In this document: positions 44,977 to 56,763 of the stretch, piece after piece
Layout of the letters: the number at the start of each line of letters is the position of its first letter
How positions within the stretch are numbered: position 1 is the stretch's first letter
NCBI GenBank assembly: GCA_050250895.1
Contig: JBFWNU010000001.1
Location: forward strand, 968,008-1,032,007
Direction of reading: 5' to 3'
DNA length: 64,000 nucleotides
Origin: Vulcanimicrobiota bacterium
Lineage (GTDB): Bacteria; Vulcanimicrobiota; Xenobia; Xenobiales; JADMJV01
Translations under genes and position numbers: made by a program
The notes under the pieces: model-generated
Told to the model about the DNA's origin: nothing
The model's input: the letters and a program-made list of their open reading frames with translations, nothing else
The model's database searches: none

Positions 44977-46380
44977 ATGACAAAACAACTCGAACACACT
45001 CTGACCAGCTTCCTGATGGCTTGCTGGTCATGGACCCTGGCCCACCCGGGTTTACTCCTGCTCCTGGTGGCCATCATCCTTTTGTGGCGACGCCTTGAAC
45101 CGCAGGCGGCCGCCCGGCTCCTTCGGTGGAGCGCCCTGACCGTGGTCCTGGTCGTGCTGGTCAAGCTGCTGGTGAGCGTGGGCTGGGCCACCCTCGACCG
45201 CTTCGACCAGAGTCGTAACGCGCTCTATTCGACGGGCCAGACCGATTCGGGCCAGGACACCATTCAATACGCACCTTCAGCCGCTGTCGAAGAGATCGCT
45301 ACTCGCCAGCAGAGTCTCTATTTCTCGCCCCGCGCCTTCGAGATGTCCGGGCTGGCCGCCTTACCCGGGTGGAACGGCCAGGATGTGGTCGAGTCGCCCT
45401 CGATCATCGACATCGAAGATCGCCTCGAGCAATCGGGTCAAACCACCTGGGTGCGTCGCAAACTGGTCTTCCGCAGCTATCTCGGGGTGCCCCTCGAGTT
45501 GAGCGACCTGAAACTGGACCTTCGCTTCGTGCCCGACTCGGTGGCGTATCAATCCCACTTCCAGGCGAGCTATCTATTCCACAATCCTCTCGACCGCAAA
45601 GCCCGGCTCCGTTTCAACTTTCCTTTGCCCCTCAATAGCGGAACCCTCAATGACTTCCAGATGACCGTCAATGGAGAGAAGTCGCCGGCCATCTGGGAAG
45701 GCGAGGTCGAGGCCGGTGGACAGGTCAAGGTCGAGGTTTCTTACCGCAACCGGGGCCGGCGTTCCTGGACCTATTCGCCCACCCAACAGCGGGCCAGCAT
45801 CGGGCAATTGACCCTGAAACTCACCTCTGACAACCAGGAGATCAAGTTTCGCCGAGACAGCCTCTTTCCCACCGACGGCAGCGCCGGCGATTGGCACTGG
45901 AAACTCTCCGACGTCATCACTTCGCAAGACATCAGCCTCTTCTTTCCCACCACCTCCAAACGCGAACGAATGGCCAGGGTGCTCGAGTTTGCCCCCCTGG
46001 GAATGGTGCTGCTGCTGGTGCTGGCGATGATGGTGAAAGAACACGACCCGGGTAGGTTGGCTTTGCTGGCCCTGACCTACGCCGGCTCGCTCGTGCTCAC
46101 CAGTTACCTCTGGACCTATCTGGGCTTCACCGCCGCCGTCACCCTCGGCGCCCTGGTGGGAGCCGGCGTCACCGCGGCCACCCAACAAAACCGTCTACTG
46201 GTGGCGGCCTTCGCACTGTGGCTCTGCTTCTGCTGGTCGGGGCAGACGGGGCTGCTGCTGACGGTGGCGGGATTGGGGGCTCTGACCTGGTGGGGACAAA
46301 CCGGCAATCTGGCGGTCAACTCTGGCAACAAACACGCCACCCAGGTCAGCTCCCCATCAGCCACGCTCGATAGTCTATAG
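44977..46380 (+). CDS. CreD-like inner membrane protein
   Basis: Two N-terminal TM helices, large periplasmic beta domain (FQASYLFHNP, FNFPLP), about five C-terminal TM helices; divergent from the two-component pair. Confidence 0.55.
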   Translation: MTKQLEHTLTSFLMACWSWTLAHPGLLLLLVAIILLWRRLEPQAAARLLRWSALTVVLVVLVKLLVSVGWATLDRFDQSRNALYSTGQTDSGQDTIQYAPSAAVEEIATRQQSLYFSPRAFEMSGLAALPGWNGQDVVESPSIIDIEDRLEQSGQTTWVRRKLVFRSYLGVPLELSDLKLDLRFVPDSVAYQSHFQASYLFHNPLDRKARLRFNFPLPLNSGTLNDFQMTVNGEKSPAIWEGEVEAGGQVKVEVSYRNRGRRSWTYSPTQQRASIGQLTLKLTSDNQEIKFRRDSLFPTDGSAGDWHWKLSDVITSQDISLFFPTTSKRERMARVLEFAPLGMVLLLVLAMMVKEHDPGRLALLALTYAGSLVLTSYLWTYLGFTAAVTLGALVGAGVTAATQQNRLLVAAFALWLCFCWSGQTGLLLTVAGLGALTWWGQTGNLAVNSGNKHATQVSSPSATLDSL

Positions 46381-46440: not shown

Positions 46441-47706
46441 GTGCCTAGATATCGTTATGTAGCCGTCGACCCTGAAGGGACGACGCACCGGGGCGAGGTC
46501 GATATCTCCGAGCTGGAAGCGGTGCTGGGACGAGCAGCGCGCGGCTGGAAGATCCTTGATGTCCAAGAAGTCGGGGGGGCGGCCTCACCAGCCGAGCGCC
46601 CGCGCCAGGCCAGCCCCTCCACTGCCTCCAGTTCTGTCTCTGCTGAACCAGAGACCCCGCCGTTCTGGGCTCGAAGCCGGGTGCCGTCGAGAGTGGTGGC
46701 GACCTTTCTGCAGCAACTCGGCATGGCCTTGAAGAATGGCGTTTCGCCGGGTCAGGCCATCCATCTGCTGGCCCAGGAGTCTGAGTTTCCTCAGTTCCAG
46801 CGAGTGGTCGAGCAGATCCTTGACGACATCACCATGCGGGGGCGCTCGCTTTATCTGGCCATGGCGCGCCACCCCAAGGTCTTTCCCGCCACCTGCTTGA
46901 TGCTGGTGCGCTCGGGCGAAGAAGGGGGCGATGTGGCCGGTCGCCTGGAGCGGGCGAGCGATCTCATCATGCGCTCCAGCGACCGCGAAAAAGAGGTGCG
47001 CCGCGCTCTCAGCGGCCCCATGGTCACCGCCTCGATGGGAATCGTCATGCTGTTCGCGGTGGTGCGCTTCGTGGTCCCCCAGATACTTCAGCTCTACAAC
47101 GACATGGATGCCGACTTGCCCTGGATCTCGAGGCTGTGCATCATGGTGGTTCACATCCTCAACCACCCCCTGACCCTGGTCGGTCTGGGCGTGACCGCCA
47201 TCGGAGTCTACGTCTTCCGGAGCACCCTGCGCGAGATGCTGTTCGAGACCGGTCTGTTGATCCCCGGAGTGGGCGAACTGCTCGGTAGCTTTCTCGGCTC
47301 GCAATTCTGCGAGGTGCTGGCCTACCTTTATCGCGACGGCATTCCCATCGGACGGGCCATCGGCATGCTCGAGAAAACCGCCGAGTTCAAGCTGCACGCC
47401 CGCTATTTGCGCCTGTGTCGCAAACGTCTCGAGAATTCGGGCAGCCTCAGCGAGGCCGTTTGCGAGATCCCCTATTTTCCGCGCATGCTCCACTCGCTGG
47501 CGGCGGTGGCCGAAGAGACTGGTAGCACCGACACTCTCTTCGCTACGGGCGCTCGCATGATGGAAGAAGAGGTCGAGCTGGTCTTGACGCAATTGGTGAC
47601 CATCATCGAGCCCGTCACCGTATGCGTCCTCGGAGTGGCCACCGGCTTCTTCTTTATCGGACTCTTCTTGCCCGTCTACGGGATTCTCTCCAAGCTCGGC
47701 GGCTGA
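46441..47706 (+). CDS. type II secretion F / type IV pilus platform protein (PilC-like)
   Basis: YRYVAVD..G, AMARHPKVF, GEEGG, AEETG, IIEP, FLPVY duplicated T2SSF domains. Confidence 0.9.
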   Translation: MPRYRYVAVDPEGTTHRGEVDISELEAVLGRAARGWKILDVQEVGGAASPAERPRQASPSTASSSVSAEPETPPFWARSRVPSRVVATFLQQLGMALKNGVSPGQAIHLLAQESEFPQFQRVVEQILDDITMRGRSLYLAMARHPKVFPATCLMLVRSGEEGGDVAGRLERASDLIMRSSDREKEVRRALSGPMVTASMGIVMLFAVVRFVVPQILQLYNDMDADLPWISRLCIMVVHILNHPLTLVGLGVTAIGVYVFRSTLREMLFETGLLIPGVGELLGSFLGSQFCEVLAYLYRDGIPIGRAIGMLEKTAEFKLHARYLRLCRKRLENSGSLSEAVCEIPYFPRMLHSLAAVAEETGSTDTLFATGARMMEEEVELVLTQLVTIIEPVTVCVLGVATGFFFIGLFLPVYGILSKLGG

Positions 47707-47743: not shown

Positions 47744-50104
47744 GTGGAAGCCGACATTCGCATTCTGGTGCTCGAAGACGATGCGGTCATGCGCGAGACT
47801 TTGCGAGAGGCCCTCGAAGAAGAGGGTTATCAAGTCGAGGCCGTAGCCTCGGGTGTGAAGGCCATCGAACAAGCCCGCGGGTCGGCCTTCGACCTGATCG
47901 TAGCCGACGTTCGTATGGAAGGTATCGACGGCCTCGACACCATCGAGCAGGTGCGCGACATCGCACCCGGCATTCGCAGCCTCGTGGTGACCGGCTACTG
48001 CAACGAGGCCGACACCATTCGCGCTCTCAAGTTGGGGGTGGGAGACTACATTCAAAAGCCGTTCCAGCTTCAGGACTTTCTCGACTCGGTCCGCCGACAA
48101 GTGCTGCAAAAGAAAGTCGATAGCGAGCGCCAGGCCGACCGCCAGGCTTTTGCCCGGGCCCTGCGCCTGGCTCTCGAGGCGCGCGCCCGCCTGTACGACC
48201 TCGAAGTCGGCGGGTGCTATCCCAAGGTCGAGGGGCTGCAGAAGCTGGGCCCCTGGGCGCGAGCCCTGGCCCAAGAATCGGGCTTGAGCGACGAAGAGTG
48301 CCTCAGGGTCGAGATCCTGGCCTATCTGCGGGGGCTCGAGAGCCAGCAGCCCGACTTCTCGCTCGAGGGCCTGGAGGACTCTCTCGACGAGAACACCCGG
48401 GCCGCTCTGGGCCAACTTCGCCACGCTTCGCCCGAACTGGTACAGGCCCAACTGGCAGCCGCCATCCTGGCTTTCGGAGCCCTCGAGGAAGCCGACGCCG
48501 AAAGCTTGCTAGAAAGCGCCATTCCTCCCCTTTGGGTCGAGAGCTTGCAGCGTCTGGAAAGCGAGGGACCAAACCAGACCCAGCCTCGCCGGGGCGGACA
48601 GTCCGGCTCGCGCCGCCGGGGTCTGCTGGCCCTGGGTCAGGCCCTGGAGGGCCGCGGCGACGGCGACGGGGCGGCCACCGCCTATCAGGCCGTGATCAAA
48701 GAATCGGAAGAAGGCGCCGAGACCATCGAGGCCCGTCTGGGCCTGGCTCGCCTGGCCCGCCAATCCGGCCAGCGCCTTGAGGCCCTGGAGGAGGCCCGCC
48801 GGGCGGTCGAGAGCGCCGCCCGCCAGGGACCCAACAGTCTGGCCCTGACGCAGGTCGAGGCTGCCTTTCTGGCTTTCGAGCAAGACCGGCAATGGGCTGT
48901 CGACCAGTTGACCCGGGCCCGGGCCGGCTTCGAAAAATTCGGCCAGGCGGCCGGACTGGCCAAGGTGGATCTGGCCCTGTGGGTGGCCCGTGGCGACGGC
49001 CAGGCCGCTCCCGGCGAGGCCCTGCGCCGCCTGACCCTGCCGCTCAACAGTGATGAACTTGCACTGTGTGCCCGCTGGCTGGCGCCCCAACTGCTGGAAC
49101 GGTGTCCCGACCAGAGCGAGGCCGAGCAGGCTCTTTTTCAGATTGCCCGGCTCTTTCCCGGAGAGCTACAACGCATGTTGCACCGGCGCCAACTCTCGGC
49201 CGGGGCCCGGGCTAACCTGGTGCCGGTGCTGGCCCGGGCCGGCGGGGCGGCGGCCGCTGGCCTGCTCGAACTGCTCAGCCAGGATGGCGACCCCGACGTG
49301 CTAGCCGCCCTCCAGCGCCACAAGCCGGGGGCTGAATCGGGGCTGCCGCTAATCCGCCTGTATACGCTGGGGGCTTTCGCCATCTATCGCGGTGAAGAGC
49401 GAATTCCCGACAAGACCTGGCGCCGCAAGAAGAACCGCCTGTTTCTGGCTCGGTTGGCGGCTGCCCCAGGAGCGGTCCCGGAAGACGTCTTGATCGAAGA
49501 GTTCTGGCCGGGCGATCCCGATAAGGGCCGGCAGAACATCTACTCGGCCACCTCGGTGGCCCGCAAGTGCCTGGCTCCTTCGGACGGCGAGCGGCTGGAA
49601 GTGGTCGATCGCTCGGGCCTGGGCCTGAGTTTGTCGACGCAAATCCCGCTCTGGCACGATCTCAGCGAAGTTCAGGGCGAATTCGAACAAGCCCGCCGCT
49701 GCCAGGATGCCGACCGGGTCCAGGAGAGCTATCCCCATCTCAAGCGCGTCCACAAGCTCTACCGAGGTCCCTATCTAGAGGGCTGCTTCATGGACTGGGC
49801 CGTCGACATCCGGCGCAACCTCGAGCACCTGCTGTTGCAGACCTTCGGCCGATTGTGCGGCTGGCTCGAAGAACAGCGCCGGGGCGACGAGCTCGGCGAG
49901 TTCTCGCGCTGGATGCTCGAGGTCGACCCCTGCTCGCAGCAGGCCCACGTATCGCTGATGCGCTCGCTACTGCTGGAGGAACGTCCTGAGGAGGCGGTCA
50001 GACATTTCGAGCGGGCTCGCTTGACGCTGGCCCGCGAACTGGCCATGGAACCCTCCATCGAGCTACTGCGCGAACACCAGCGCGCCCTGCTGAGCCTCGA
50101 CTAA
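47744..50104 (+). CDS. response regulator with REC, TPR, wHTH and BTAD domains
   Basis: REC (LEDD, ADVRMEG, QKPF); IRLYTLGAF, LIEEFWP, LYRGPYLEG..DW, DPCSQQAH, ELAMEPS SARP/BTAD signatures. Confidence 0.88.
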   Translation: MEADIRILVLEDDAVMRETLREALEEEGYQVEAVASGVKAIEQARGSAFDLIVADVRMEGIDGLDTIEQVRDIAPGIRSLVVTGYCNEADTIRALKLGVGDYIQKPFQLQDFLDSVRRQVLQKKVDSERQADRQAFARALRLALEARARLYDLEVGGCYPKVEGLQKLGPWARALAQESGLSDEECLRVEILAYLRGLESQQPDFSLEGLEDSLDENTRAALGQLRHASPELVQAQLAAAILAFGALEEADAESLLESAIPPLWVESLQRLESEGPNQTQPRRGGQSGSRRRGLLALGQALEGRGDGDGAATAYQAVIKESEEGAETIEARLGLARLARQSGQRLEALEEARRAVESAARQGPNSLALTQVEAAFLAFEQDRQWAVDQLTRARAGFEKFGQAAGLAKVDLALWVARGDGQAAPGEALRRLTLPLNSDELALCARWLAPQLLERCPDQSEAEQALFQIARLFPGELQRMLHRRQLSAGARANLVPVLARAGGAAAAGLLELLSQDGDPDVLAALQRHKPGAESGLPLIRLYTLGAFAIYRGEERIPDKTWRRKKNRLFLARLAAAPGAVPEDVLIEEFWPGDPDKGRQNIYSATSVARKCLAPSDGERLEVVDRSGLGLSLSTQIPLWHDLSEVQGEFEQARRCQDADRVQESYPHLKRVHKLYRGPYLEGCFMDWAVDIRRNLEHLLLQTFGRLCGWLEEQRRGDELGEFSRWMLEVDPCSQQAHVSLMRSLLLEERPEEAVRHFERARLTLARELAMEPSIELLREHQRALLSLD

Positions 50105-50108
50105 GGGC

Positions 50109-50801
50109 TTAGGGCAGGCTGGTCAGCCAGTTGCCCAGAGCAGTGATTTCGGCGTCGGAAATGGAGTTGGCGGGATTGTTGACCGGGTCATAGAGAGGAT
50201 CGGTCTCTTCGAAATAGATTTGCATGGCCCCGTAAGTCCCGCCGTAGTTGTCGACCAGCGCCGGGTCGCGAACGGACTGCTCGACGTAGGCGTCGGGGGC
50301 CAATCCTCCGGTCCAACCGGCGGGTCGCGAGCCGATGCCGGTCAGAGGCACCAAACCGGGAGCGTCGGCATAGCCCATCGAGGGCAAGGAGTGGCAACTC
50401 CAACAAGCCAGGCGTTCGAATGCCGCCTGGCCGGGGTCCTTGGGTGGCAGCTTGCTGCGCAAAAAGCGAGTATTCCGCGTCCCGTGAGTGGTGTGTCTAA
50501 CCTCGACCTCGACCACCGTCAAGTTAGGGTCGCTGCCGAAATTTGGCTGGGTGGTCACGTTATAGGAATACTCGTTGGCGGGGGGGTCGAAAAAGCCGGA
50601 GGAGGGCCCGACGCTGGGAAAGGGAGCCGTCAGCAGTTCACTCACCTTTGAGTTACTGTAGGAGACCAGTTCTGAGGTCTGGCTCACGTTGGCCGTCTGG
50701 CGGGCTCCCAGGATAAAGAGGTTCATCACGAAGGCAGCCGTGATGAACATCAAAAACATCGCCAGCATCAACTCGGGAATGGTCAGACCGCGACGGCTCA
50801 T
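50109..50801 (-). CDS. minor type IV pilin fused to a C-terminal c-type cytochrome
   Basis: RRG|LTIPE class III signal peptide; VVEVEV pilin strand; GQAAFERLA-CWSCH (nt 50405-50391), YVEQSVRDP, GAM, ISDAEITALGNWL class I cytochrome c. Confidence 0.85.
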   Translation of the reverse strand: MSRRGLTIPELMLAMFLMFITAAFVMNLFILGARQTANVSQTSELVSYSNSKVSELLTAPFPSVGPSSGFFDPPANEYSYNVTTQPNFGSDPNLTVVEVEVRHTTHGTRNTRFLRSKLPPKDPGQAAFERLACWSCHSLPSMGYADAPGLVPLTGIGSRPAGWTGGLAPDAYVEQSVRDPALVDNYGGTYGAMQIYFEETDPLYDPVNNPANSISDAEITALGNWLTSLP

Positions 50802-51406
50802 ATCGGTTTGTTGACTCCGATCTCCAGCACCACTGGCTTGCCGATCTGATTGACGTAAAGCTCACAGCGCACCACATCGGCACCGCCGACGACCTGGCGC
50901 GAAACCAGAAACTCGCGCACGTCGCGCACCAGGATCTTGCCGGTGGGCAACTGCGAGGGTAGCGGACTCAAACTATAACTGTCATAGACCATCTTGCGCA
51001 GGCTTCCCGGAGAGGTGGCTGTGGCCGGGACGAACCAGTAGCCCGTGATGATCGAATCGGGGAAACCCGGATAGCCCTCGCGACGATGCCATCCGCTGAT
51101 GCGAAACTCCTGAGTCACATCCGCCCGAGTCGGAGTCGAGGTCAGCGCCGTCGGGGGCAAGCCGAGGGAAAGGCTCAAAGCCGCCTGGGGGTCAGCCGTA
51201 CTCACGTCGCGGGCGATCTCGTCGAGAGCCATGGTGGCTTCGCGAACCGCTTGCACTTTCTCCGAAGAGCGGGCCTGGGTGCGAAATCCCAACACCAGGG
51301 CACGCCCCACCATGGTCATGAAGATGGCCATCAGAGCCCCGGCGACCAGGACCTCGATGAGACTGATACCGCGACTCTTAACGTTGATCATCGTAGAGCT
51401 TCGCAT
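50798..51406 (-). CDS. type IV minor pilin (PilW/GspJ-like)
   Basis: KSRG|ISLIEVLVAG; ALDEIARDV helix; start could be 51391. Confidence 0.85.
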   Translation of the reverse strand: MRSSTMINVKSRGISLIEVLVAGALMAIFMTMVGRALVLGFRTQARSSEKVQAVREATMALDEIARDVSTADPQAALSLSLGLPPTALTSTPTRADVTQEFRISGWHRREGYPGFPDSIITGYWFVPATATSPGSLRKMVYDSYSLSPLPSQLPTGKILVRDVREFLVSRQVVGGADVVRCELYVNQIGKPVVLEIGVNKPI

Positions 51407-51803
51407 ATCCTCCCAGCGGCATCACCAGACGCCGTTCGGTCACCACCGAACCGTCCTCGGCCAGGATTCGCCCCGTGACCGCATAAGTGTTGGGATCGCT
51501 CAGAGCCTCGATCTCGAACTCTTCGGTGGCCGACAAAGTCACCACCACGGGATTGCCCGGGGCCCCATAGATGGGGGCCGTGCGCGGGGTCTGGCGGTCG
51601 AGATAGTTGTAGTACTCGATGCCGGAGCGGGCCAGCGCCTGGGCTCTGGCCTCGGCTTGCTGGTGGCGTTGAAAACCCAGGTCTCGCTGAACATAGGTTA
51701 GAAAGCCTAGCCCTAGCAAGAGCAATAACGAGATCAGGCCGAGGGCCGTGATCAGGGCCGCGCCACGCGCCCCCCACTGGCTCTTCCCACGCATGCCTGT
51801 CAT
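51378..51803 (-). CDS. short PilX/GspK-like minor pilin
   Basis: RG|AALITALGLI (no Glu5), QALARSGIEY PilX N-terminal motif. Confidence 0.8.
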   Translation of the reverse strand: MTGMRGKSQWGARGAALITALGLISLLLLLGLGFLTYVQRDLGFQRHQQAEARAQALARSGIEYYNYLDRQTPRTAPIYGAPGNPVVVTLSATEEFEIEALSDPNTYAVTGRILAEDGSVVTERRLVMPLGGYAKLYDDQR

Positions 51804-51876
51804 TTTATCAGATTCCCGTCGAATTTGCAGCCACCCCTAGACGGGACGGGGCCAACTGGATGTCAAAGCATGGGTT

Positions 51877-52560
51877 ATGCGATGGACCGCCTGGCTCCTA
51901 CTTTTGGCCGTGCTGACGGGCTGCTCTGGCGGCCCGGTCGAACAGCCCCAGAGCCGCGCGACTCCAGAGGCGGCGGTTACGGCGGGGCTCACCTCCGGCG
52001 GACCTGACCTGGCCCCCCTCCCCCCCGCGCCGGCCCACGGTGGGAGCGGCGGGGTCTCGCGGCCAGACGATCCTCCCATCGACTACCATTCCCCTCCGGT
52101 CGACTCGGCCCAGTTTCCGGCCGGCCAGCGCCCTGAGTCTGACCAGACGCCCCCTCCCAGCGAAGAGAGCCCCGAGCAGTGGCGCCAAAACCACAAGGTC
52201 CAGGCCCGGGGGCTGAAGGCCTATCCTGACCTGCTTGGCTATGACCAGGTCGTGGCCAAGTTTCCGCCCGGTTCGTCCATGGCCTCGGTGGTGCGGGGCG
52301 AGAAATTGTACACCAGCTATTGCAAGCAGTGTCACGGAACCGAAGGGTTGCCCGACAAGAAAAGCGAGCTGTTAGCCCGCTATCGCATGGCCGATCTGCG
52401 CCAGCCCCTGACCTACAAATTCGGTTCCGACGAGCGGGCTGTATACCGCAGCATCGCCTTCGGTGTGCCCAGCGCCCCGATGGGCTACTTCAAAGAGTTG
52501 CTGACCGACCAGGATATCTGGGATCTGGTCTACTACCTGCAGAGCAAGACCGGGGGCTAA
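51877..52560 (+). CDS. monoheme cytochrome c lipoprotein
   Basis: Lipobox LTG-C, long Pro-rich tether, RGEKLY...CKQCHG (52321-52335), APM axial Met, LTDQDIWDLVYYL. Confidence 0.9.
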   Translation: MRWTAWLLLLAVLTGCSGGPVEQPQSRATPEAAVTAGLTSGGPDLAPLPPAPAHGGSGGVSRPDDPPIDYHSPPVDSAQFPAGQRPESDQTPPPSEESPEQWRQNHKVQARGLKAYPDLLGYDQVVAKFPPGSSMASVVRGEKLYTSYCKQCHGTEGLPDKKSELLARYRMADLRQPLTYKFGSDERAVYRSIAFGVPSAPMGYFKELLTDQDIWDLVYYLQSKTGG

Positions 52561-54992
52561 CCCTCGGCCAGCACCGGCAGGGCCACCGTGAAGGTAGCGC
52601 CCTGGCCGGGCACCGACTCGACGCTGAGTTCGCCCTGATGGCCACTCACCAACTGATGGGTCACGGACAAGCCCAGCCCGGTGCCCTTGCCCACTTCTTT
52701 GGTGGTGAAAAAAGGCTCGAAAATCCGGGCCTGGACCTCGGGTGCGATACCCGGACCGCTGTCGCGAACCTGCAACAGGACCCGGCCCTGTCGCTGCCCG
52801 GTGCGAATCTCGATGAGCCCTCCTCCGGCCATGACCGCGTCACGAGCGTTGAGCACCAGGTTGGTAATGACCTGCTGCAGTTCGTTCTTATTGGCCAGCA
52901 CCTGAGGCACCGCCTCGAGCTGGTCACGCACCTCGACACCCTCCTGACGAATCTGGCCCCCCAACAGCTCGAGGGTGTCGCGCACCACTTCGTTGACATC
53001 GACCGGCTTCTTGCCTGGGCCGGCCTCACGCGAGTAATAGAGTAGCTTGGCGATGATCTCCTTGGCATTCTGAGCGGCCTGCTCGGCCGTAGCGAGGCGC
53101 TTGGGGACCTTCTCGAACTTCTCCTTATCGAGGCTGCGCCGGGCCATCTGCAGCTGCAACATGACCGCCGCCAGAGGCGAATTGAGTTCGTGGGCGATGC
53201 CAGCGGCCAGCTGGCCTACGGCAGCCAGCTTGCTTGATTGAATCACCTGGGCCTGGGATTCTTGAATCTGGCGTCGGGCCTCGAGCACATCTTGATAGAG
53301 CTGGCAATTGCGCAAGATGACGGCCGCGTGCACAGCCGTCAGATAGAGCATATCCAGGCCCGCCTGGTCAAAGACCGAAGGCTGACTGTGCACCACCAGC
53401 AAGGCCCCTACCACCGAATCCTCCAGCACCATGGGCACGATCAGCAAGCTGGCGAAGTCCCGGTAAGGTGTTCCGAAACGGGATTCACCCACGTTTTCGA
53501 ACAGTAGCGGTCGCTGGCTCTGGCTGACAGCCTGGCACAACTCGGCGATAGCCTGAGGATTCCAGCCCTCCTGACCCGGCCAGATACGAGTCGGGCGACC
53601 ATCCGGCTCGAGGATAGCGCCGGCCTGATGCACCAGAGTCTCCTCGATCAACAGCTGGAGCCGCTCCAACACGTCCTCTCGTCGCAGTGTGCTGCCCAGG
53701 GCTCGCGAGCCGTTGAGCAGCAGGTCCAGTCGCTGATTCCAGGCGGCCAGCTCCTGATTGGCCGAGGCGTGCAACTCGAGGGCATCTTGCAACTCCTGAT
53801 AGTTGCGGGCCGCCTGCAGAGCCACCGAGGCCTGGTCGGCGATAATGGCCAGCAGATGCCGTTGCTGCTTGGACACCTGTAAGGGCCGCCTATCACCTAG
53901 ATAAAGAACGCCCTGTTGATAGATGGGCAGGGCCACCGCCCAGGCCTCGCCCTCGAGCAGACGCGGTCGCGACAGATGCTCGGCCCGGCCCTCGATGATC
54001 AGCCCCCGCTGCCAGCATTCATCGACCACCGGCTCGCTCAACTTGAGCAACGAATAGTCACGCAGTCGGTCCTCGCGAGGGCTGTGATAGCAGACCGGAA
54101 CCGGACCCAATCCCTGATTGAGGAAGATGGCGACCGTTTGACAGCCGAGCGTGCGCCGCACCATCTCGACGGTGGTGTTCAACACGCCCTGAACCTCGAG
54201 GCTACGGGCGAACAGATGCGAGAGCTCTTCCATGAGCACCCGTTCCTCGACCTTGTGGGCCAGGGCGTCCTGGTTCTCTTCTAGCCTGGCCTTGACTTGC
54301 TCGAGCTTGCGCTTGTCTTCCTTCTGCTCGCGCTCCATCACCGCCATGCGTCGAGTCTCGCGCACCTGGAGGGCCTGGGCAGCCACGAAGTGGAAGACGG
54401 AAAAAAGCGGCAGGGTCCAGAGAAAATTGACCAGGCCCCCACCCAGAAAGAGGGCCAGCGCGACTCCCGTCACCACCTCGCCCAGGGCCAACTGCAAGCG
54501 GACAGGCCCATAGGCGGCCAACTCCTTGAGGTCAAACCCTTCATCCTCGATCGCTAGTAGACTCGGCACCAGGCGGGTCGTGCCGAGGTAGACCAGTCCG
54601 GCTCCCAGACCCGCCCAGGCCCCCAGCGCAGCGGTGGTCATCAGGGTCACCACCACCAGGGCGGCCAGGGCCGGAAAGATATCGGCCACCGATTCACGCC
54701 AGATCGCCGCGGCCCGCGGCCCGCCTCGCCCTAGAGCTCGTCCCCCCACCCCTACCACCACCAGCGCGGTGGCGGCGGCCGCGCCCTGGGTCAAAGCCGT
54801 GGCAAGATAGGCTGCGAACGCAGTGCTCAGAAAGCCGAAACAGGGCGTGCGCACCGCCGTCAGCTCGAGCGTCAACGCCAGGGCCACCAGGACCACCAGA
54901 TCCACCCCGCCGCTGGGGTGCTCTGACAGACAAAAGCACAGCACCGCCAGGGCTATACTTAAGAAAGTGAAGAACCCCAGACGGGGAGTCAC
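52557..54992 (-). CDS. membrane sensor histidine kinase with two GAF domains (NtrB-type)
   Basis: Six or seven TM helices, two GAF domains, AAGIAHELNSPL, NLVLNARDA, FEPFFTTKEVGKGTGLGL. Confidence 0.93.
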   Translation of the reverse strand: MTPRLGFFTFLSIALAVLCFCLSEHPSGGVDLVVLVALALTLELTAVRTPCFGFLSTAFAAYLATALTQGAAAATALVVVGVGGRALGRGGPRAAAIWRESVADIFPALAALVVVTLMTTAALGAWAGLGAGLVYLGTTRLVPSLLAIEDEGFDLKELAAYGPVRLQLALGEVVTGVALALFLGGGLVNFLWTLPLFSVFHFVAAQALQVRETRRMAVMEREQKEDKRKLEQVKARLEENQDALAHKVEERVLMEELSHLFARSLEVQGVLNTTVEMVRRTLGCQTVAIFLNQGLGPVPVCYHSPREDRLRDYSLLKLSEPVVDECWQRGLIIEGRAEHLSRPRLLEGEAWAVALPIYQQGVLYLGDRRPLQVSKQQRHLLAIIADQASVALQAARNYQELQDALELHASANQELAAWNQRLDLLLNGSRALGSTLRREDVLERLQLLIEETLVHQAGAILEPDGRPTRIWPGQEGWNPQAIAELCQAVSQSQRPLLFENVGESRFGTPYRDFASLLIVPMVLEDSVVGALLVVHSQPSVFDQAGLDMLYLTAVHAAVILRNCQLYQDVLEARRQIQESQAQVIQSSKLAAVGQLAAGIAHELNSPLAAVMLQLQMARRSLDKEKFEKVPKRLATAEQAAQNAKEIIAKLLYYSREAGPGKKPVDVNEVVRDTLELLGGQIRQEGVEVRDQLEAVPQVLANKNELQQVITNLVLNARDAVMAGGGLIEIRTGQRQGRVLLQVRDSGPGIAPEVQARIFEPFFTTKEVGKGTGLGLSVTHQLVSGHQGELSVESVPGQGATFTVALPVLAEG

Positions 54993-55879
54993 GAGGCAGG
55001 CTCTCGCCAGATGCGGTTGTAAAGTTGCTCGAGGGCGGGCGAGTGCTCGCGCAAAGCCACACTGCGAGCATACAAGAAGGCGGCCAGCTTGAGCTGCTCG
55101 GGCGAGACGACCGAGTTGAGTACGTTGCGATAAAGACAGGCAAAGTCGTTGGGAGCCACCTGGCTGGATTTGACCACCGCGTACATGTCCGTGTTCGAAA
55201 GGGCCTGGATGAACTCGGTGACTTGCTGGTATCCGCCCGCCAGCTGGCTGAACTCGCTACCCGTGGTAGCACTGTTTTGCAACAGCCCTTCGCGCTTGAC
55301 CTCGAGGATGTGGACCTTTTCCCAACTGGCCCGAGCCTGGTCGGGTCCCAGGAGGCGCGAGCGCACCCCGACGTAAAAACAGCGGAACGCCTCTTCGCGT
55401 TGGGTCTCGAGCGAGTTTTGCCCGGTGCGCGCCGCCGCCTGGGTCACCGCCTCGACCATCTTGCGCGCACCGGCTTTGACCTTGTCGAACAGCTGAGAAT
55501 AACGGCTGCGTTCTTGCTCGGCCGAGAGCACCCGCTCGACAGCCGCGAGAAAGTCGTCAAGAGAGAACGGCTTATGAAGGTAGTCCTCGGCCTGCACCTT
55601 CATGGCCCGGGTGGGCGCGTCCTGACTAGCATAACCGGTAATCACGATGGAGCGGGCATTGGGCTGCAGAGCCTTGAGGCAACCCAGGCACTCGATGCCA
55701 TCCATCCCTTCCATGCGCACGTCAGCCACCATCAAGTCAAAGCGATGCATCCGAGCCAACTCGAGGGCAGCTTTGCTGCTGGGGGCGGCGAAGACGGTGT
55801 AGTCTTCCTCCTCAAGGGCTTCTTCGAGAGTTGCCCGCAGAATGTCGTCGTCTTCGAGGACCAGGATTCGATGTGCCAC
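54989..55879 (-). CDS. response regulator with an unknown C-terminal output domain
   Basis: REC (LEDD, ADVRMEG, HKPF); GTGA overlap with the kinase. Confidence 0.88.
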   Translation of the reverse strand: MAHRILVLEDDDILRATLEEALEEEDYTVFAAPSSKAALELARMHRFDLMVADVRMEGMDGIECLGCLKALQPNARSIVITGYASQDAPTRAMKVQAEDYLHKPFSLDDFLAAVERVLSAEQERSRYSQLFDKVKAGARKMVEAVTQAAARTGQNSLETQREEAFRCFYVGVRSRLLGPDQARASWEKVHILEVKREGLLQNSATTGSEFSQLAGGYQQVTEFIQALSNTDMYAVVKSSQVAPNDFACLYRNVLNSVVSPEQLKLAAFLYARSVALREHSPALEQLYNRIWREPAS

Positions 55880-56022: not shown

Positions 56023-56763
56023 ATGTGCTACGCCAATCTTAGCTTAAATCTCAACTTCGGCTTCGGCCCCGGTGGCTGCGTCACGCCGCCCCACCACCAC
56101 GGTCCCCACCATCATCATCACGGTTCTCAAGGTCCCCATCACCACCATCCCGGACCCCACGGTCCCCATCACCACCATCCCGGACCCCACGGTCCCCATC
56201 ACCACCATCCCGGACCCCACGGTCCCCATCACCACCACAGCGGCAATCTCAGCGACGCGGTGGTGGGCCACAAGCCTGGTTTCTTCGGCTGCCGCGATAC
56301 GAAGGGCTACGGCCTCGACCTCAACAACAACGGCCGCTATGACGCCGGCCGTGACGGAGTGCTCGGTTTTGACTTCAATCGCAACGGCCAGATCGACCGT
56401 AAGGAGATCGAGCGCTCTCGCGAAGCCCTGAAGGCCTTCGGCGGCAACTATGACCTCAACGGCGACGGCCGCACTTCGCTGTGCGAAAAGATGCGCGGCA
56501 ACTCTCTGCAGAAACGCATGCAGGGCATCGACACCAATCATGACGGCCGCTTGAGCGCCGGTGAAATCGCCAGCGGTGGAGGACGCGTGCTAGTCGACCA
56601 GAACCGCGACGGCAACTTCTCGCCCAACGAGTCCTTCAGCCCGTTCAACATTCCGACCCCCGGCTTCGGTCGCGGTCGACTAGACTTCGTCGATCCGCAA
56701 TACAATCACAACCAGGTAAGCCACGGTTGGTCCTGGGGCCACCCGCCCTACTTCGGTTGCTAG
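56023..56763 (+). CDS. His/Pro/Gly-repeat protein with EF-hand-like DxNxxG motifs
   Basis: GGAGG RBS; (GPHHHHPGPH)n, then DLNNNG, DFNRNG, DLNGDG, DTNHDG, DQNRDG. Confidence 0.8.
   Translation: MCYANLSLNLNFGFGPGGCVTPPHHHGPHHHHHGSQGPHHHHPGPHGPHHHHPGPHGPHHHHPGPHGPHHHHSGNLSDAVVGHKPGFFGCRDTKGYGLDLNNNGRYDAGRDGVLGFDFNRNGQIDRKEIERSREALKAFGGNYDLNGDGRTSLCEKMRGNSLQKRMQGIDTNHDGRLSAGEIASGGGRVLVDQNRDGNFSPNESFSPFNIPTPGFGRGRLDFVDPQYNHNQVSHGWSWGHPPYFGC
56101..56237 (+). repeat. 30-bp coding tandem repeat GGTCCCCATCACCACCATCCCGGACCCCAC
   Basis: Perfect copies at 56131, 56161 and 56191; degenerate copy at 56101; partial copy at 56221. Confidence 0.95.

What the first reader, a model, noticed from the sequence alone, without database searches (positions are those of the whole stretch)
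50109..50801. Type IV minor pilin fused to a c-type cytochrome
Seen: a class III signal peptide (RRG|LTIPE plus hydrophobic helix) and a PilV-like head, followed in the same frame by a complete monoheme domain (GQAAF..CWSCH, YVEQSVRDP, GAM, SDAEITALGNWL). Established: PilV/W/X-type minor pilins form the pilus tip complex, and CxxCH with a distal Met marks class I cytochrome c. Inference: a heme is built into the pilus tip, for contact redox sensing or electron exchange with surfaces or cells. I know of no characterised pilin-cytochrome fusion.
Basis: partly seen in the sequence, partly recalled or inferred. Interest (0 to 1): 0.88.

Follow-up and report, generated by a model that had tools for sequence, protein, structure and literature searches.

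The report
Cytochrome c fused to minor pilin
This bacterium encodes a small pilus-tip-type subunit with a heme-binding cytochrome c domain grafted onto its end, kept together with two other tip-type subunits, its own assembly-platform gene and a second, lipid-tethered cytochrome, which points to an undescribed pilus-like device that carries a redox centre.

Summary
One frame holds a prepilin-type leader and hydrophobic helix, a small pilin head and a complete monoheme class I cytochrome c domain. The AlphaFold model (mean pLDDT 93.3) matches the type II secretion tip pseudopilin GspI (Z 9.7) and cytochrome c domains (Z 8.9).

The fusion is a conserved family. It occurs in 31 of 46 database representatives and 16 of 401 related genomes. 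CxxCH, the distal Met and Glu+5 are invariant.

The gene closes a K-like/J-like/I operon. That operon sits beside a lipoprotein cytochrome c and a GspF platform paralogue, and most of this gene set recurs in 16 related loci. The platform genes form one clade. A sister cassette in the same genome has the same layout, with an NHL propeller instead of the cytochrome and no second cytochrome.

So this is a modular minor (pseudo)pilin with a redox module. The modular-pilin concept is known; I found no paper on this module. Not shown: that heme is attached, that the subunit enters a filament or reaches the surface, and what it exchanges electrons with. The complex prediction never ran.

The parts
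50109..50801 (-). GspI-type minor (pseudo)pilin fused to a class I monoheme cytochrome c (230 aa). Leader residues 1-5; alpha-1 helix 8-58; four-stranded head 67-116; cytochrome c domain about 118-230; CWSCH at nt 50391-50405; distal Met193 at nt 50223-50225.
   Evidence: ORF and motifs. AF2 model, mean pLDDT 93.3. GspI Z 9.7 and cytochrome c domain of caa3 oxidase Z 8.9. Family profile against PDB cytochromes, E 2.8e-17. Invariant residues.
50798..51406 (-). GspJ-type minor pseudopilin (202 aa, has Glu+5). Its stop overlaps the start of the fusion gene by 4 nt.
   Evidence: AF2 model, pLDDT 85.2. EpsJ Z 11.0, XcpW Z 10.9, GspJ Z 9.5. Found beside the fusion gene in 13 of 16 related loci.
51378..51803 (-). 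Small GspK-like pseudopilin (141 aa) without Glu+5; first gene of the K-J-I operon; overlaps the J-like gene by 29 nt.
   Evidence: N-terminal match to NCBIfam T2SS_GspK, 23.6 bits, far below the cut-off of 130. 5 of 9 family members match. No Glu at +5 in 9 of 9 rows. In 12 of 16 related loci. Fold not tested.
51877..52560 (+). Lipoprotein cytochrome c (227 aa). Lipobox LTGC, a low-complexity tether of about 115 residues, and a c552-like monoheme domain at 139-223 (CKQCH). Divergently transcribed from the K-J-I operon across a 73-nt gap.
   Evidence: Pfam Cytochrom_C 38.7 bits and Cytochrome_CBB3 35.9 bits. PDB 6h5l_B E 4.3e-10 and c-552 Ks_3358 E 1e-6. In 14 of 16 related loci. Not similar to the fused domain by BLASTP.
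46441..47706 (+). GspF/PilC-type platform protein paralogue (421 aa) dedicated to this cassette.
   Evidence: Pfam T2SSF E 8.3e-47. Within 8 kb of the fusion gene in 14 of 16 related loci. These 14 plus the window's copy fall in one group of 16 rows out of 90, FastTree support 100.

Best explanation
The gene encodes a modular minor (pseudo)pilin. It has a GspI-type carrier module: a prepilin leader cut after Gly5, Glu+5, a hydrophobic alpha-1N helix and a four-stranded head. A six-residue linker joins this to a class I cytochrome c module.

Proposed course of events:
1. The precursor is inserted in the cytoplasmic membrane.
2. Heme is attached on the outer face by the genome's system II machinery (CcsBA).
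3. The single prepilin peptidase removes the leader.
4. The subunit joins the co-translated GspJ-like subunit and the Glu5-less GspK-like subunit in a tip/priming complex on the cassette's own GspF platform.
5. The heme is thereby held on a short pilus-like stub or filament tip. There it exchanges single electrons with the co-encoded cytochrome c, which hangs on a long lipid-anchored tether.

Shown here: the architecture, the folds, the conservation, the cassette and the co-inheritance with GspF.
Inferred: heme attachment, processing, assembly with J and K, electron transfer to the lipoprotein cytochrome, and the location (periplasm or surface).
For: - Folds. Model residues 36-117 match GspI (3ci0_I: Z 9.7, rmsd 2.6, 79 aligned) and EpsI (Z 9.6). 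Residues 119-230 match the cytochrome c domain of caa3 oxidase (1w2l: Z 8.9) and Kustd1711 (Z 8.5).
- Sequence. The family profile hits solved cytochromes c at E 2.8e-17.
- Purifying selection. CxxCH and Met193 are 32 of 32, and Glu+5 is 30 of 30. Glu5 serves subunit docking in filaments, not membrane anchoring (PMC10191384, passages read). A protein 227/230 identical goes with a contig that differs at 243 of 2800 nt. 16 of the 19 listed differences inside the ORF lie at third codon positions (206 further differences were not listed).
- Distribution. 31 of 46 representatives carry CxxCH. Full-length matches occur in 16 of 401 genomes.
- Cassette in 16 loci from 14 genomes. GspF 14, lipoprotein cytochrome 14, J-like 13 and K-like 12 of 16.
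- Neighbours. The J-like neighbour has the GspJ fold (Z 11.0). The K-like neighbour lacks Glu+5, as the capping subunit of tip complexes does (PMC10191384).
- Platform. The GspFs beside fusion genes form one group, support 100.
- Sister cassette. It has the layout F-K-J-I with an NHL propeller as cargo and no lipoprotein cytochrome. The second cytochrome therefore goes with the cytochrome cargo.
- Machinery. The genome has one prepilin peptidase match, two secretin matches and CcsA/ResB.
Against: - No evidence on expression or protein.
- For this single sequence, Pfam Cytochrom_C (21.0 against 21.3) and N_methyl (13.6 against 21.2) fall below their cut-offs. Only 8 of 32 family members match N_methyl at E<=0.01.
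- The cassette has no major pilin, no GspH-like subunit, no ATPase and no secretin of its own.
- The K-like protein is less than half the length of the GspK model (141 aa against 307 positions) and its fold was not tested.
- The closest paralogue of the cytochrome module (30% identity, E 1e-10) is the small cytochrome c of the caa3 oxidase operon. An ordinary respiratory role at the membrane is therefore plausible.
- The genome has few multiheme cytochromes: 2 frames with five CxxCH and 4 with two. No classical extracellular electron-transfer set is visible.
- In M. xanthus an sfGFP tag on a minor pilin blocks pilus extension (PMC8833165, Discussion). A bulky C-terminal module may likewise hinder passage through a secretin.
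Confidence: 0.5

Rival explanations
1. The protein is a membrane-anchored respiratory cytochrome. The pilin-like helix serves only as a cleavable membrane anchor. The unassembled protein shuttles electrons in the periplasm, for instance towards the caa3 oxidase, as other anchored class I cytochromes do.
For: - The nearest paralogue of the cytochrome module sits in the caa3 operon: COX15-UbiA, COX2 with cytochrome c, COX1, COX3, COX4, cytochrome c, CtaG.
- A relative that lacks the fusion (G013) has a 138-aa homologue with an N-terminal hydrophobic stretch, next to a CtaG-like gene. The name CtaG-like is my reading of the sequence, not tested by a call.
- The best structural match of the module is the cytochrome c domain of a caa3 oxidase.
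- Pilins reside in the cytoplasmic membrane before assembly (PMC10191384).
Against: - Glu+5 is kept in 30 of 30 rows and Gly-1 in 25 of 26, and a complete GspI head is retained. An anchor needs none of these.
- The gene is translationally coupled to GspJ-like and GspK-like genes.
- It is co-inherited with a dedicated GspF.
- It is not next to oxidase genes in the window.
Confidence: 0.2
2. The cytochrome has a structural, non-redox role like TfcP. The heme domain is an inert, stable module that helps the tip/priming complex fold or assemble, and carries no electrons.
For: In Myxococcus xanthus, TfcP is a cytochrome c encoded in a minor-pilin/PilY1 cluster. It stabilises PilY1.1 and is argued not to act in electron transport (PMC8833165, sections 5 and 11 read).
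Against: - TfcP has a type I signal peptide, His/Cys ligation, a charged C-terminal extension and is not part of the pilus.
- Here the distal ligand position is Met in 32 of 32 rows, the canonical electron-carrier ligation.
- A second, canonical cytochrome c is co-encoded in 14 of 16 loci, but not in the sister NHL cassette.
- There is no PilY1 gene in the cassette.
Confidence: 0.12
3. The heme is a redox or ligand sensor. It reports the redox state or a small ligand in the periplasm or at a surface, and gates the assembly of this filament type.
For: In this genome two-component genes flank the cassette: a response regulator with a BTAD domain at 47744-50104, a GAF histidine kinase at 52557-54992 and a response regulator at 54989-55879.
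Against: - tblastn with these three regulators gave only receiver-domain and kinase-core matches in 2 of the 16 related loci (L064, L069); the other 14 gave none.
- Hexacoordinate His/Met class I cytochromes are typically carriers, not sensors (established knowledge, recalled).
- A sensor does not explain the conserved second cytochrome.
Confidence: 0.08
4. The fusion is an artefact: a chimeric assembly, a read-through of two genes, or a decaying pseudogene.
For: Single-sequence Pfam scores lie just under the cut-offs. A word-indexed search found only the protein itself.
Against: - The same one-frame architecture occurs in 15 other genomes and in 31 database representatives.
- The junction is bridged by independent contigs.
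- Differences lie mainly at third codon positions, and a near-identical protein (227/230) exists.
- The model has high confidence across the linker.
Confidence: 0.01

Closest known systems
Modular type IV pilins (PilB and PilC of Streptococcus sanguinis; InterPro survey of Raynaud et al. 2021, PMC8179133, passages read)
   Same: A small pilin carrier module is joined by a short linker to a functional domain that is not specific to pili. Such pilins are proposed to sit at the filament tip. In S. sanguinis the tip set also contains an I-type subunit (PMC10191384).
   Different: The described modules bind ligands (vWA, lectin) or are peptidases. The word 'cytochrome' occurs 0 times in the main text. 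Dataset S1 with its 264 architectures could not be read and may list this one. Here the carrier is itself the I-type subunit. The cassette also brings its own platform gene and a second cytochrome.
GspK-GspI-GspJ tip complex of type II secretion (PDB 3ci0, 2ret, 5bw0) and its PilX/PilV/PilW equivalent in type IVa pili
   Same: The target has the GspI fold (Z 9.7) and its neighbour the GspJ fold (Z 11.0). The third subunit has a GspK-like N-terminus and lacks Glu5. The three genes are adjacent and overlapping.
   Different: - GspI normally has no extra domain, and GspK carries the insert.
- Here the K-like protein is only 141 aa and the I subunit carries 113 extra residues.
- The gene order is K-J-I.
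- There are no G, H, E, L, M, C or D genes in the cassette.
- The physical complex was not tested.
TfcP of Myxococcus xanthus (PMC8833165)
   Same: A monoheme cytochrome c encoded with minor pilin genes and needed for a tip/priming complex.
   Different: TfcP is a free periplasmic protein with a type I signal peptide, His/Cys ligation and a charged C-terminal helix. It is not in the pilus and was found only in Myxococcales. Here the cytochrome is fused to the pilin, has Met at the distal position and is paired with a second cytochrome.
Bindosome of Sulfolobales (PMC3047682, search listing and abstract only; PMC13705601, passages read)
   Same: Functional proteins carry a class III signal peptide. 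They depend on a dedicated platform/ATPase pair and three small pilins to be placed in the envelope.
   Different: The bindosome is archaeal, its cargo is sugar-binding proteins serving ABC transporters, and the cargo genes lie apart from the machinery. This is an analogy only.
Membrane-anchored class I cytochromes c of caa3 oxidase operons, and the cytochrome c domain of caa3 subunit II (PDB 1w2l)
   Same: The cytochrome module is homologous: 30% identity to the operon's 189-aa cytochrome and Z 8.9 to 1w2l.
   Different: Those proteins use an ordinary signal-anchor helix or are fused to subunit II. None has a prepilin leader, Glu+5 or a pilin head.

Membership tests
Type IV pilin-like proteins (class III signal peptide) | Short basic leader ending in Gly, hydrophobic +1 residue, Glu at +5, about 20 hydrophobic residues forming alpha-1N | tested here: met
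   MSRRG|LTIPELMLAMFLMFITAAFVMNLFILG. Glu+5 in 30 of 30 rows and Gly-1 in 25 of 26. Model helix 8-58.
Type IV pilin-like proteins (class III signal peptide) | Pfam N_methyl (PF07963) at or above the gathering score | tested here: not met
   13.6 bits against a cut-off of 21.2. 8 of 32 family members match at E<=0.01. The 27-position model is weak on divergent leaders.
Type IV pilin-like proteins (class III signal peptide) | A prepilin peptidase is available, and the leader is cleaved and the N-terminus methylated | not testable with these tools
   One Peptidase_A24 match in the genome. Processing itself needs protein work.
GspI / PilV-class minor (pseudo)pilin | Small head: alpha-1C packed on a short antiparallel sheet, GspI-like fold | tested here: met
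   3ci0_I Z 9.7 (rmsd 2.6, 79 of 83 residues), 2ret_A Z 9.6, 5bw0_B Z 8.3.
GspI / PilV-class minor (pseudo)pilin | Forms a complex with J-type and K-type subunits | not tested
   The three genes are adjacent, with a J-like fold and a K-like N-terminus. The complex prediction was never accepted by the queue.
Class I c-type cytochrome | CxxCH heme attachment motif near the N-terminus of the domain | tested here: met
   C133-W-S-C136-H137. Present in 32 of 32 rows.
Class I c-type cytochrome | Distal Met ligand about 60 residues downstream | tested here: met
   Met193 in 32 of 32 rows. The profile's Met column aligns with a Met of Kustd1711.
Class I c-type cytochrome | Cytochrome c fold and sequence family | tested here: met
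   1w2l Z 8.9, 7zs0 Z 8.5. Profile E 2.8e-17. Pfam Cytochrom_C in 27 of 32 members. This sequence alone scores 21.0 against 21.3.
Class I c-type cytochrome | Covalently bound heme | not testable with these tools
   System II maturation genes are present. Attachment needs heme staining or mass spectrometry.
Modular type IV pilins (Raynaud et al. 2021) | N-terminal pilin module plus a domain not specific to pilus biology, joined by a short linker | tested here: met
   Head to residue 116, cytochrome c from about residue 118, high pLDDT across the junction. Definition taken from PMC8179133.
TfcP family | Type I signal peptide, His/Cys heme ligation, charged C-terminal extension | tested here: not met
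   Class III leader, Met at the distal position, no such extension. TfcP features taken from PMC8833165.

The most novel reading that the evidence does not exclude
A dedicated type 4 filament machine (its own GspF platform plus a K-J-I tip set) builds a short, possibly extendable pseudopilus. Its I subunit carries a covalently bound heme, and a cytochrome c on a long lipid-anchored tether feeds or drains it. This would be a 'redox pilus': it moves single electrons across the periplasm, or through a secretin, between the respiratory chain and an outer-membrane or external partner. That mode of electron transfer differs both from conductive pilins and from cytochrome nanowires.
Probability: 0.25. 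Interest if true: 0.9.

Novelty: new variant of a known kind. Interest (0 to 1): 0.64.

Why it matters
Pili and cytochromes have long been linked in the debate on microbial nanowires, but always as separate proteins. Here evolution has fused a heme domain to a pilus-tip-type subunit and has kept that fusion under strong purifying selection. It has also kept it together with a dedicated platform gene and a second cytochrome.

If the heme is displayed on a filament, this is a new way to position a redox centre in or beyond the cell envelope, and a natural template for engineered redox-active pili.

The finding also exposes a broader feature of this little-studied lineage: dozens of GspF-plus-minor-pilin cassettes whose I-type subunit carries exchangeable cargo.

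Tried and rejected
- Foldseek of the whole model against PDB gave only noise: best E 0.015, tyrosine phosphatases, TM 0.18. The long helix and the two domains defeat it. The exhaustive VIA search gave the answers.
- The word-indexed protein search found only the protein's own cluster. With the family alignment it found 6 proteins, and no source gives any of them a name.
With the single protein it found nothing in genome contigs. With a relative's protein it found one locus.
- The protein atlas gave no usable hit and holds no model.
- Complex prediction of I (residues 30-230), J (38-202), K (38-141) and heme was never accepted: the queue was full or the job was not sent on at every attempt, and the tool gave no usable answer. 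It gives no result either way.
- No RNA holder is listed among the sequencing runs.
- The K-like profile found nothing in PDB at E<=10 beyond chance rows.
- The promoter scan found 0 sigma-70-like sites, and the terminator-like sites lie inside genes.
- The tree of head domains (44 rows) puts NHL-bearing heads among cytochrome-bearing ones with weak support. A single origin of the fusion is neither shown nor excluded.
- I considered that the fused domain is a recent copy of the neighbouring cytochrome and rejected it: BLASTP shows no similarity.
- I considered classical extracellular electron transfer and found no support: few multiheme frames.
- Only 6 of 76 GspF-like ORFs have any CxxCH ORF within 3.5 kb. 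Cytochromes are therefore not a general feature of these cassettes.

Full report
OBSERVATION. The interval 50109-50801 is one ORF on the minus strand (230 aa, ATG start). It reads MSRRG|LTIPELMLAMFLMFITAAFVMNLFILG, which is a five-residue basic leader ending in Gly, Glu at +5 and a hydrophobic helix. About 90 residues of head follow, and then GQAAFERLACWSCH ... YVEQSVRDP ... YGAM ... SDAEITALGNWLTSLP. CWSCH is nt 50391-50405 and Met193 is nt 50223-50225. The single-sequence Pfam scores are marginal: Cytochrom_C 21.0 bits against a cut-off of 21.3, and N_methyl 13.6 against 21.2. NCBIfam gives nothing. The identification therefore rests on the family and on structure.

FAMILY AND CONSERVATION. 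A search of 1.84 billion representatives gave 46 proteins at E<=0.001. Of these, 31 carry CxxCH: 30 are 202-296 aa long and one is a 130-aa fragment. The other 15 are N-terminal fragments, proteins of about 400 aa with NHL repeats behind the same kind of head, or one unrelated repeat protein. In a 32-row alignment C133, C136, H137, S176 and M193 are invariant. Glu+5 is present in all 30 rows that reach that column, and Gly-1 in 25 of 26. Seven of the 31 lack the leader only because their gene calls start late. The family profile matches solved cytochromes c at E 2.8e-17 (Kustd1711, 7zs0) and 2.1e-12 (1w2l) over profile positions 122-218. Pfam Cytochrom_C matches 27 of 32 members.

The profile was also run over 401 genomes of the same phylum, as the tool groups them. 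Full-length one-frame matches occur in 16 of 401, the window's genome included. Without the window's genome that is 11 of 15 in its own family, 2 of 5 and 2 of 3 in two further families, 0 of 19 in another family of the order, and none in the rest (I judged 'full-length' from the coverage column). Many genomes hold the head alone in ORFs of 400-690 aa, or the cytochrome alone in ORFs of 136-250 aa.

NOT AN ARTEFACT. The window lies inside a 3.9-Mb contig of a 99.6%-complete genome. Contigs of public runs bridge the domain junction near nt 50450. X1 record 1 is a 15,461-nt contig that covers 49901-52700 with 243 other letters and 3 gaps. X2 record 10 and X3 record 18 also bridge it, so 3 runs of 2 studies do. 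Of the 19 listed differences inside the ORF, 16 fall at third codon positions (206 further differences were not listed). A database protein whose longest contig is also 15,461 nt is 227/230 identical, and all three changes are conservative. I infer that it comes from that contig; this is not proven.

STRUCTURE. AlphaFold2 on the alignment gave mean pLDDT 93.3 and pTM 0.70. The model has a helix at 8-58, four strands between 67 and 116, and then a helical domain. Confidence stays high across the linker. Foldseek on the whole model failed. The exhaustive aligner put GspI of the ETEC GspK-GspI-GspJ complex first (Z 9.7, rmsd 2.6, 79 of 83 residues), then EpsI (Z 9.6), the cytochrome c domain of caa3 oxidase (Z 8.9, model residues 119-230), Kustd1711 (Z 8.5) and XcpV (Z 8.3). 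Thermus type IV-like pilins follow at Z 6-7. By the tool's own caution, Z values of 8-10 are only moderately above background. Both domain assignments are, however, backed by sequence motifs or profile hits.

NEIGHBOURS. The gene is the last of three overlapping genes.
- 51378-51803: 141 aa. The N-terminus matches NCBIfam T2SS_GspK far below the cut-off. There is no Glu at +5 in 9 of 9 aligned homologues, and 5 of 9 match the GspK model.
- 50798-51406: 202 aa, with Glu+5. Its model has pLDDT 85.2 and matches EpsJ at Z 11.0, XcpW at 10.9 and GspJ at 9.5.
- The fusion gene.

This is the make-up of the tip/priming complex, which is capped by a subunit lacking Glu5 (PMC10191384, passages read). 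Across a 73-nt gap lies, divergently, a 227-aa lipoprotein (lipobox LTGC). It has a long low-complexity tether and a c552-like domain, which is unrelated to the fused domain by BLASTP. Upstream is a GspF/PilC-type platform gene. It is separated from the fusion gene by a response regulator-BTAD gene that the related loci lack.

In 16 loci from 14 related genomes (up to 8 kb each side, some cut by contig ends) tblastn found GspF in 14, the lipoprotein cytochrome in 14, the J-like gene in 13 and the K-like gene in 12. tblastn with the window protein itself recovered the fusion gene in only 10 of these 16 loci at E<=1e-4. The other 6 rest on the profile matches.

THE CASSETTE IS ONE OF MANY. The genome holds 76 GspF-like ORFs (my own HMM; Pfam T2SSF gives 149 domain matches) and 32 T2SSE matches. 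It has only 2 secretin matches and 1 prepilin peptidase match. Other pilin-like ORFs near GspF paralogues carry PD40 or NHL propellers and Ig-like domains.

In a tree of 90 GspF sequences, the 14 that lie beside fusion genes plus the window's copy fall in one group of 16 (FastTree local support 100). The only other member is the GspF of a sister cassette at G000:C1:2690299-2693522. That cassette reads GspF, K-like (129 aa, no Glu+5), J-like (191 aa) and I-like plus NHL propeller (395 aa), and it has no cytochrome. So the platform is co-inherited with its I-type carrier, the cargo is exchangeable, and the lipoprotein cytochrome accompanies the cytochrome cargo only.

WHAT THE CYTOCHROME IS RELATED TO. 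The closest paralogue in the genome is a 189-aa cytochrome c (30% identity over residues 122-229, E 1e-10). It lies inside the caa3 oxidase operon: COX15-UbiA, COX2 with cytochrome c, COX1, COX3, COX4, this cytochrome, CtaG. The module is therefore of the ordinary aerobic, oxidase-associated kind. System II maturation genes are present. Multiheme cytochromes are few.

MECHANISM. Best supported: a modular I-type minor (pseudo)pilin that carries a His/Met heme c. It would be assembled with its J-like and K-like partners on a dedicated platform and exchange electrons with the tethered cytochrome. The strict retention of Glu+5, the GspI head, the translational coupling and the co-inherited GspF all argue that the protein enters a filament-type assembly rather than merely sitting in the membrane. 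Heme attachment, processing, assembly, location and partners are inferred. Rivals are a plain membrane-anchored respiratory carrier, a TfcP-like structural role (PMC8833165, sections 5 and 11 read) and a sensor. The complex prediction that would have tested I-J-K binding never entered the queue.

COMPARISON AND NOVELTY. The concept of modular pilins is established (PMC8179133, passages read). TfcP shows that a cytochrome c can serve a minor-pilin set, but as a free, His/Cys, non-pilus protein. The 'pilin-cytochrome cluster' of Carboxydothermus is a gene neighbourhood, not a fusion (PMC7829351, passages read). Searches found no paper on a pilin fused to a cytochrome. The Vulcanimicrobium paper mentions type IV pili only in general terms (PMC9758169, passages read). 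I rate the finding a new variant of a known kind.

It agrees with my reading but is not independent evidence.

TAXON. No tool named the genome. Earlier notes call it Eremiobacterota/Vulcanimicrobiota (unchecked). The record title of one relative's contig reads 'MAG: Selenomonadaceae bacterium'. I did not verify that label, and it sits oddly with a 63% G+C genome of 9.5 Mb.

Noticed in passing
whole genome G000 (window = C1:968008-1032007): Very large expansion of platform genes: 76 GspF-like ORFs (149 Pfam T2SSF domain matches) and 32 T2SSE matches, against only 2 secretin matches and 1 prepilin peptidase match. 48 of the 76 have at least one loosely defined pilin-like ORF within 3.5 kb.
   Followed up: partly
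G000:C1:2690299-2693522 (L073 covers the last gene): Sister cassette with the same layout: GspF, K-like without Glu+5, J-like, and an I-like head fused to an NHL propeller (395 aa). Its GspF is the nearest paralogue of the cytochrome cassette's GspF.
   Followed up: partly
L074-L079 (G000 C1, C2, C3, C4, C5): Pilin-like ORFs of 607-722 aa near other GspF paralogues. 5 of the 6 carry PD40 beta-propeller repeats, 3 have GspH-like N-terminal parts and 1 has a Big_9 domain. L076 matches no family. These are further modular pilins.
   Followed up: partly
window 47744-50104 (+): A 786-aa response regulator with TPR and BTAD domains, inserted between GspF and the fusion gene. Its stop lies 4 nt from the fusion gene's stop (convergent). 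tblastn with it gave only receiver-domain matches in 1 of the 16 related loci (L064).
   Followed up: partly
window 52557-55879 (-): A double-GAF histidine kinase (811 aa) and a response regulator (296 aa) with an unassigned C-terminal half, directly beyond the lipoprotein cytochrome gene.
   Followed up: no
window 44977-46380 (+): A 467-aa protein with several hydrophobic stretches and only a faint VIT-domain hit, directly upstream of GspF. Function unknown.
   Followed up: no
window 56023-56763 (+): A 246-aa protein with EF-hand calcium-binding motifs and a DUF7151 hit. Calcium matters for some pilus tip proteins, but no link was tested.
   Followed up: no
L089 (G000:C1:172000-186000): A caa3-type oxidase operon with a fused COX15-UbiA (CtaA-CtaB) gene of 632 aa and a separate 189-aa cytochrome c between COX4 and CtaG.
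   Followed up: partly
G000:C4:181746-185661: The system II cytochrome c maturation genes (ResB-like, CcsA-like) lie directly beside another GspF paralogue.
   Followed up: no
L088 (contig of relative G005): The public record title calls this 6.8-Mb relative 'Selenomonadaceae bacterium'. This disagrees with earlier notes of this scan, which place the window's genome in Eremiobacterota/Vulcanimicrobiota. The label is probably wrong.
   Followed up: no
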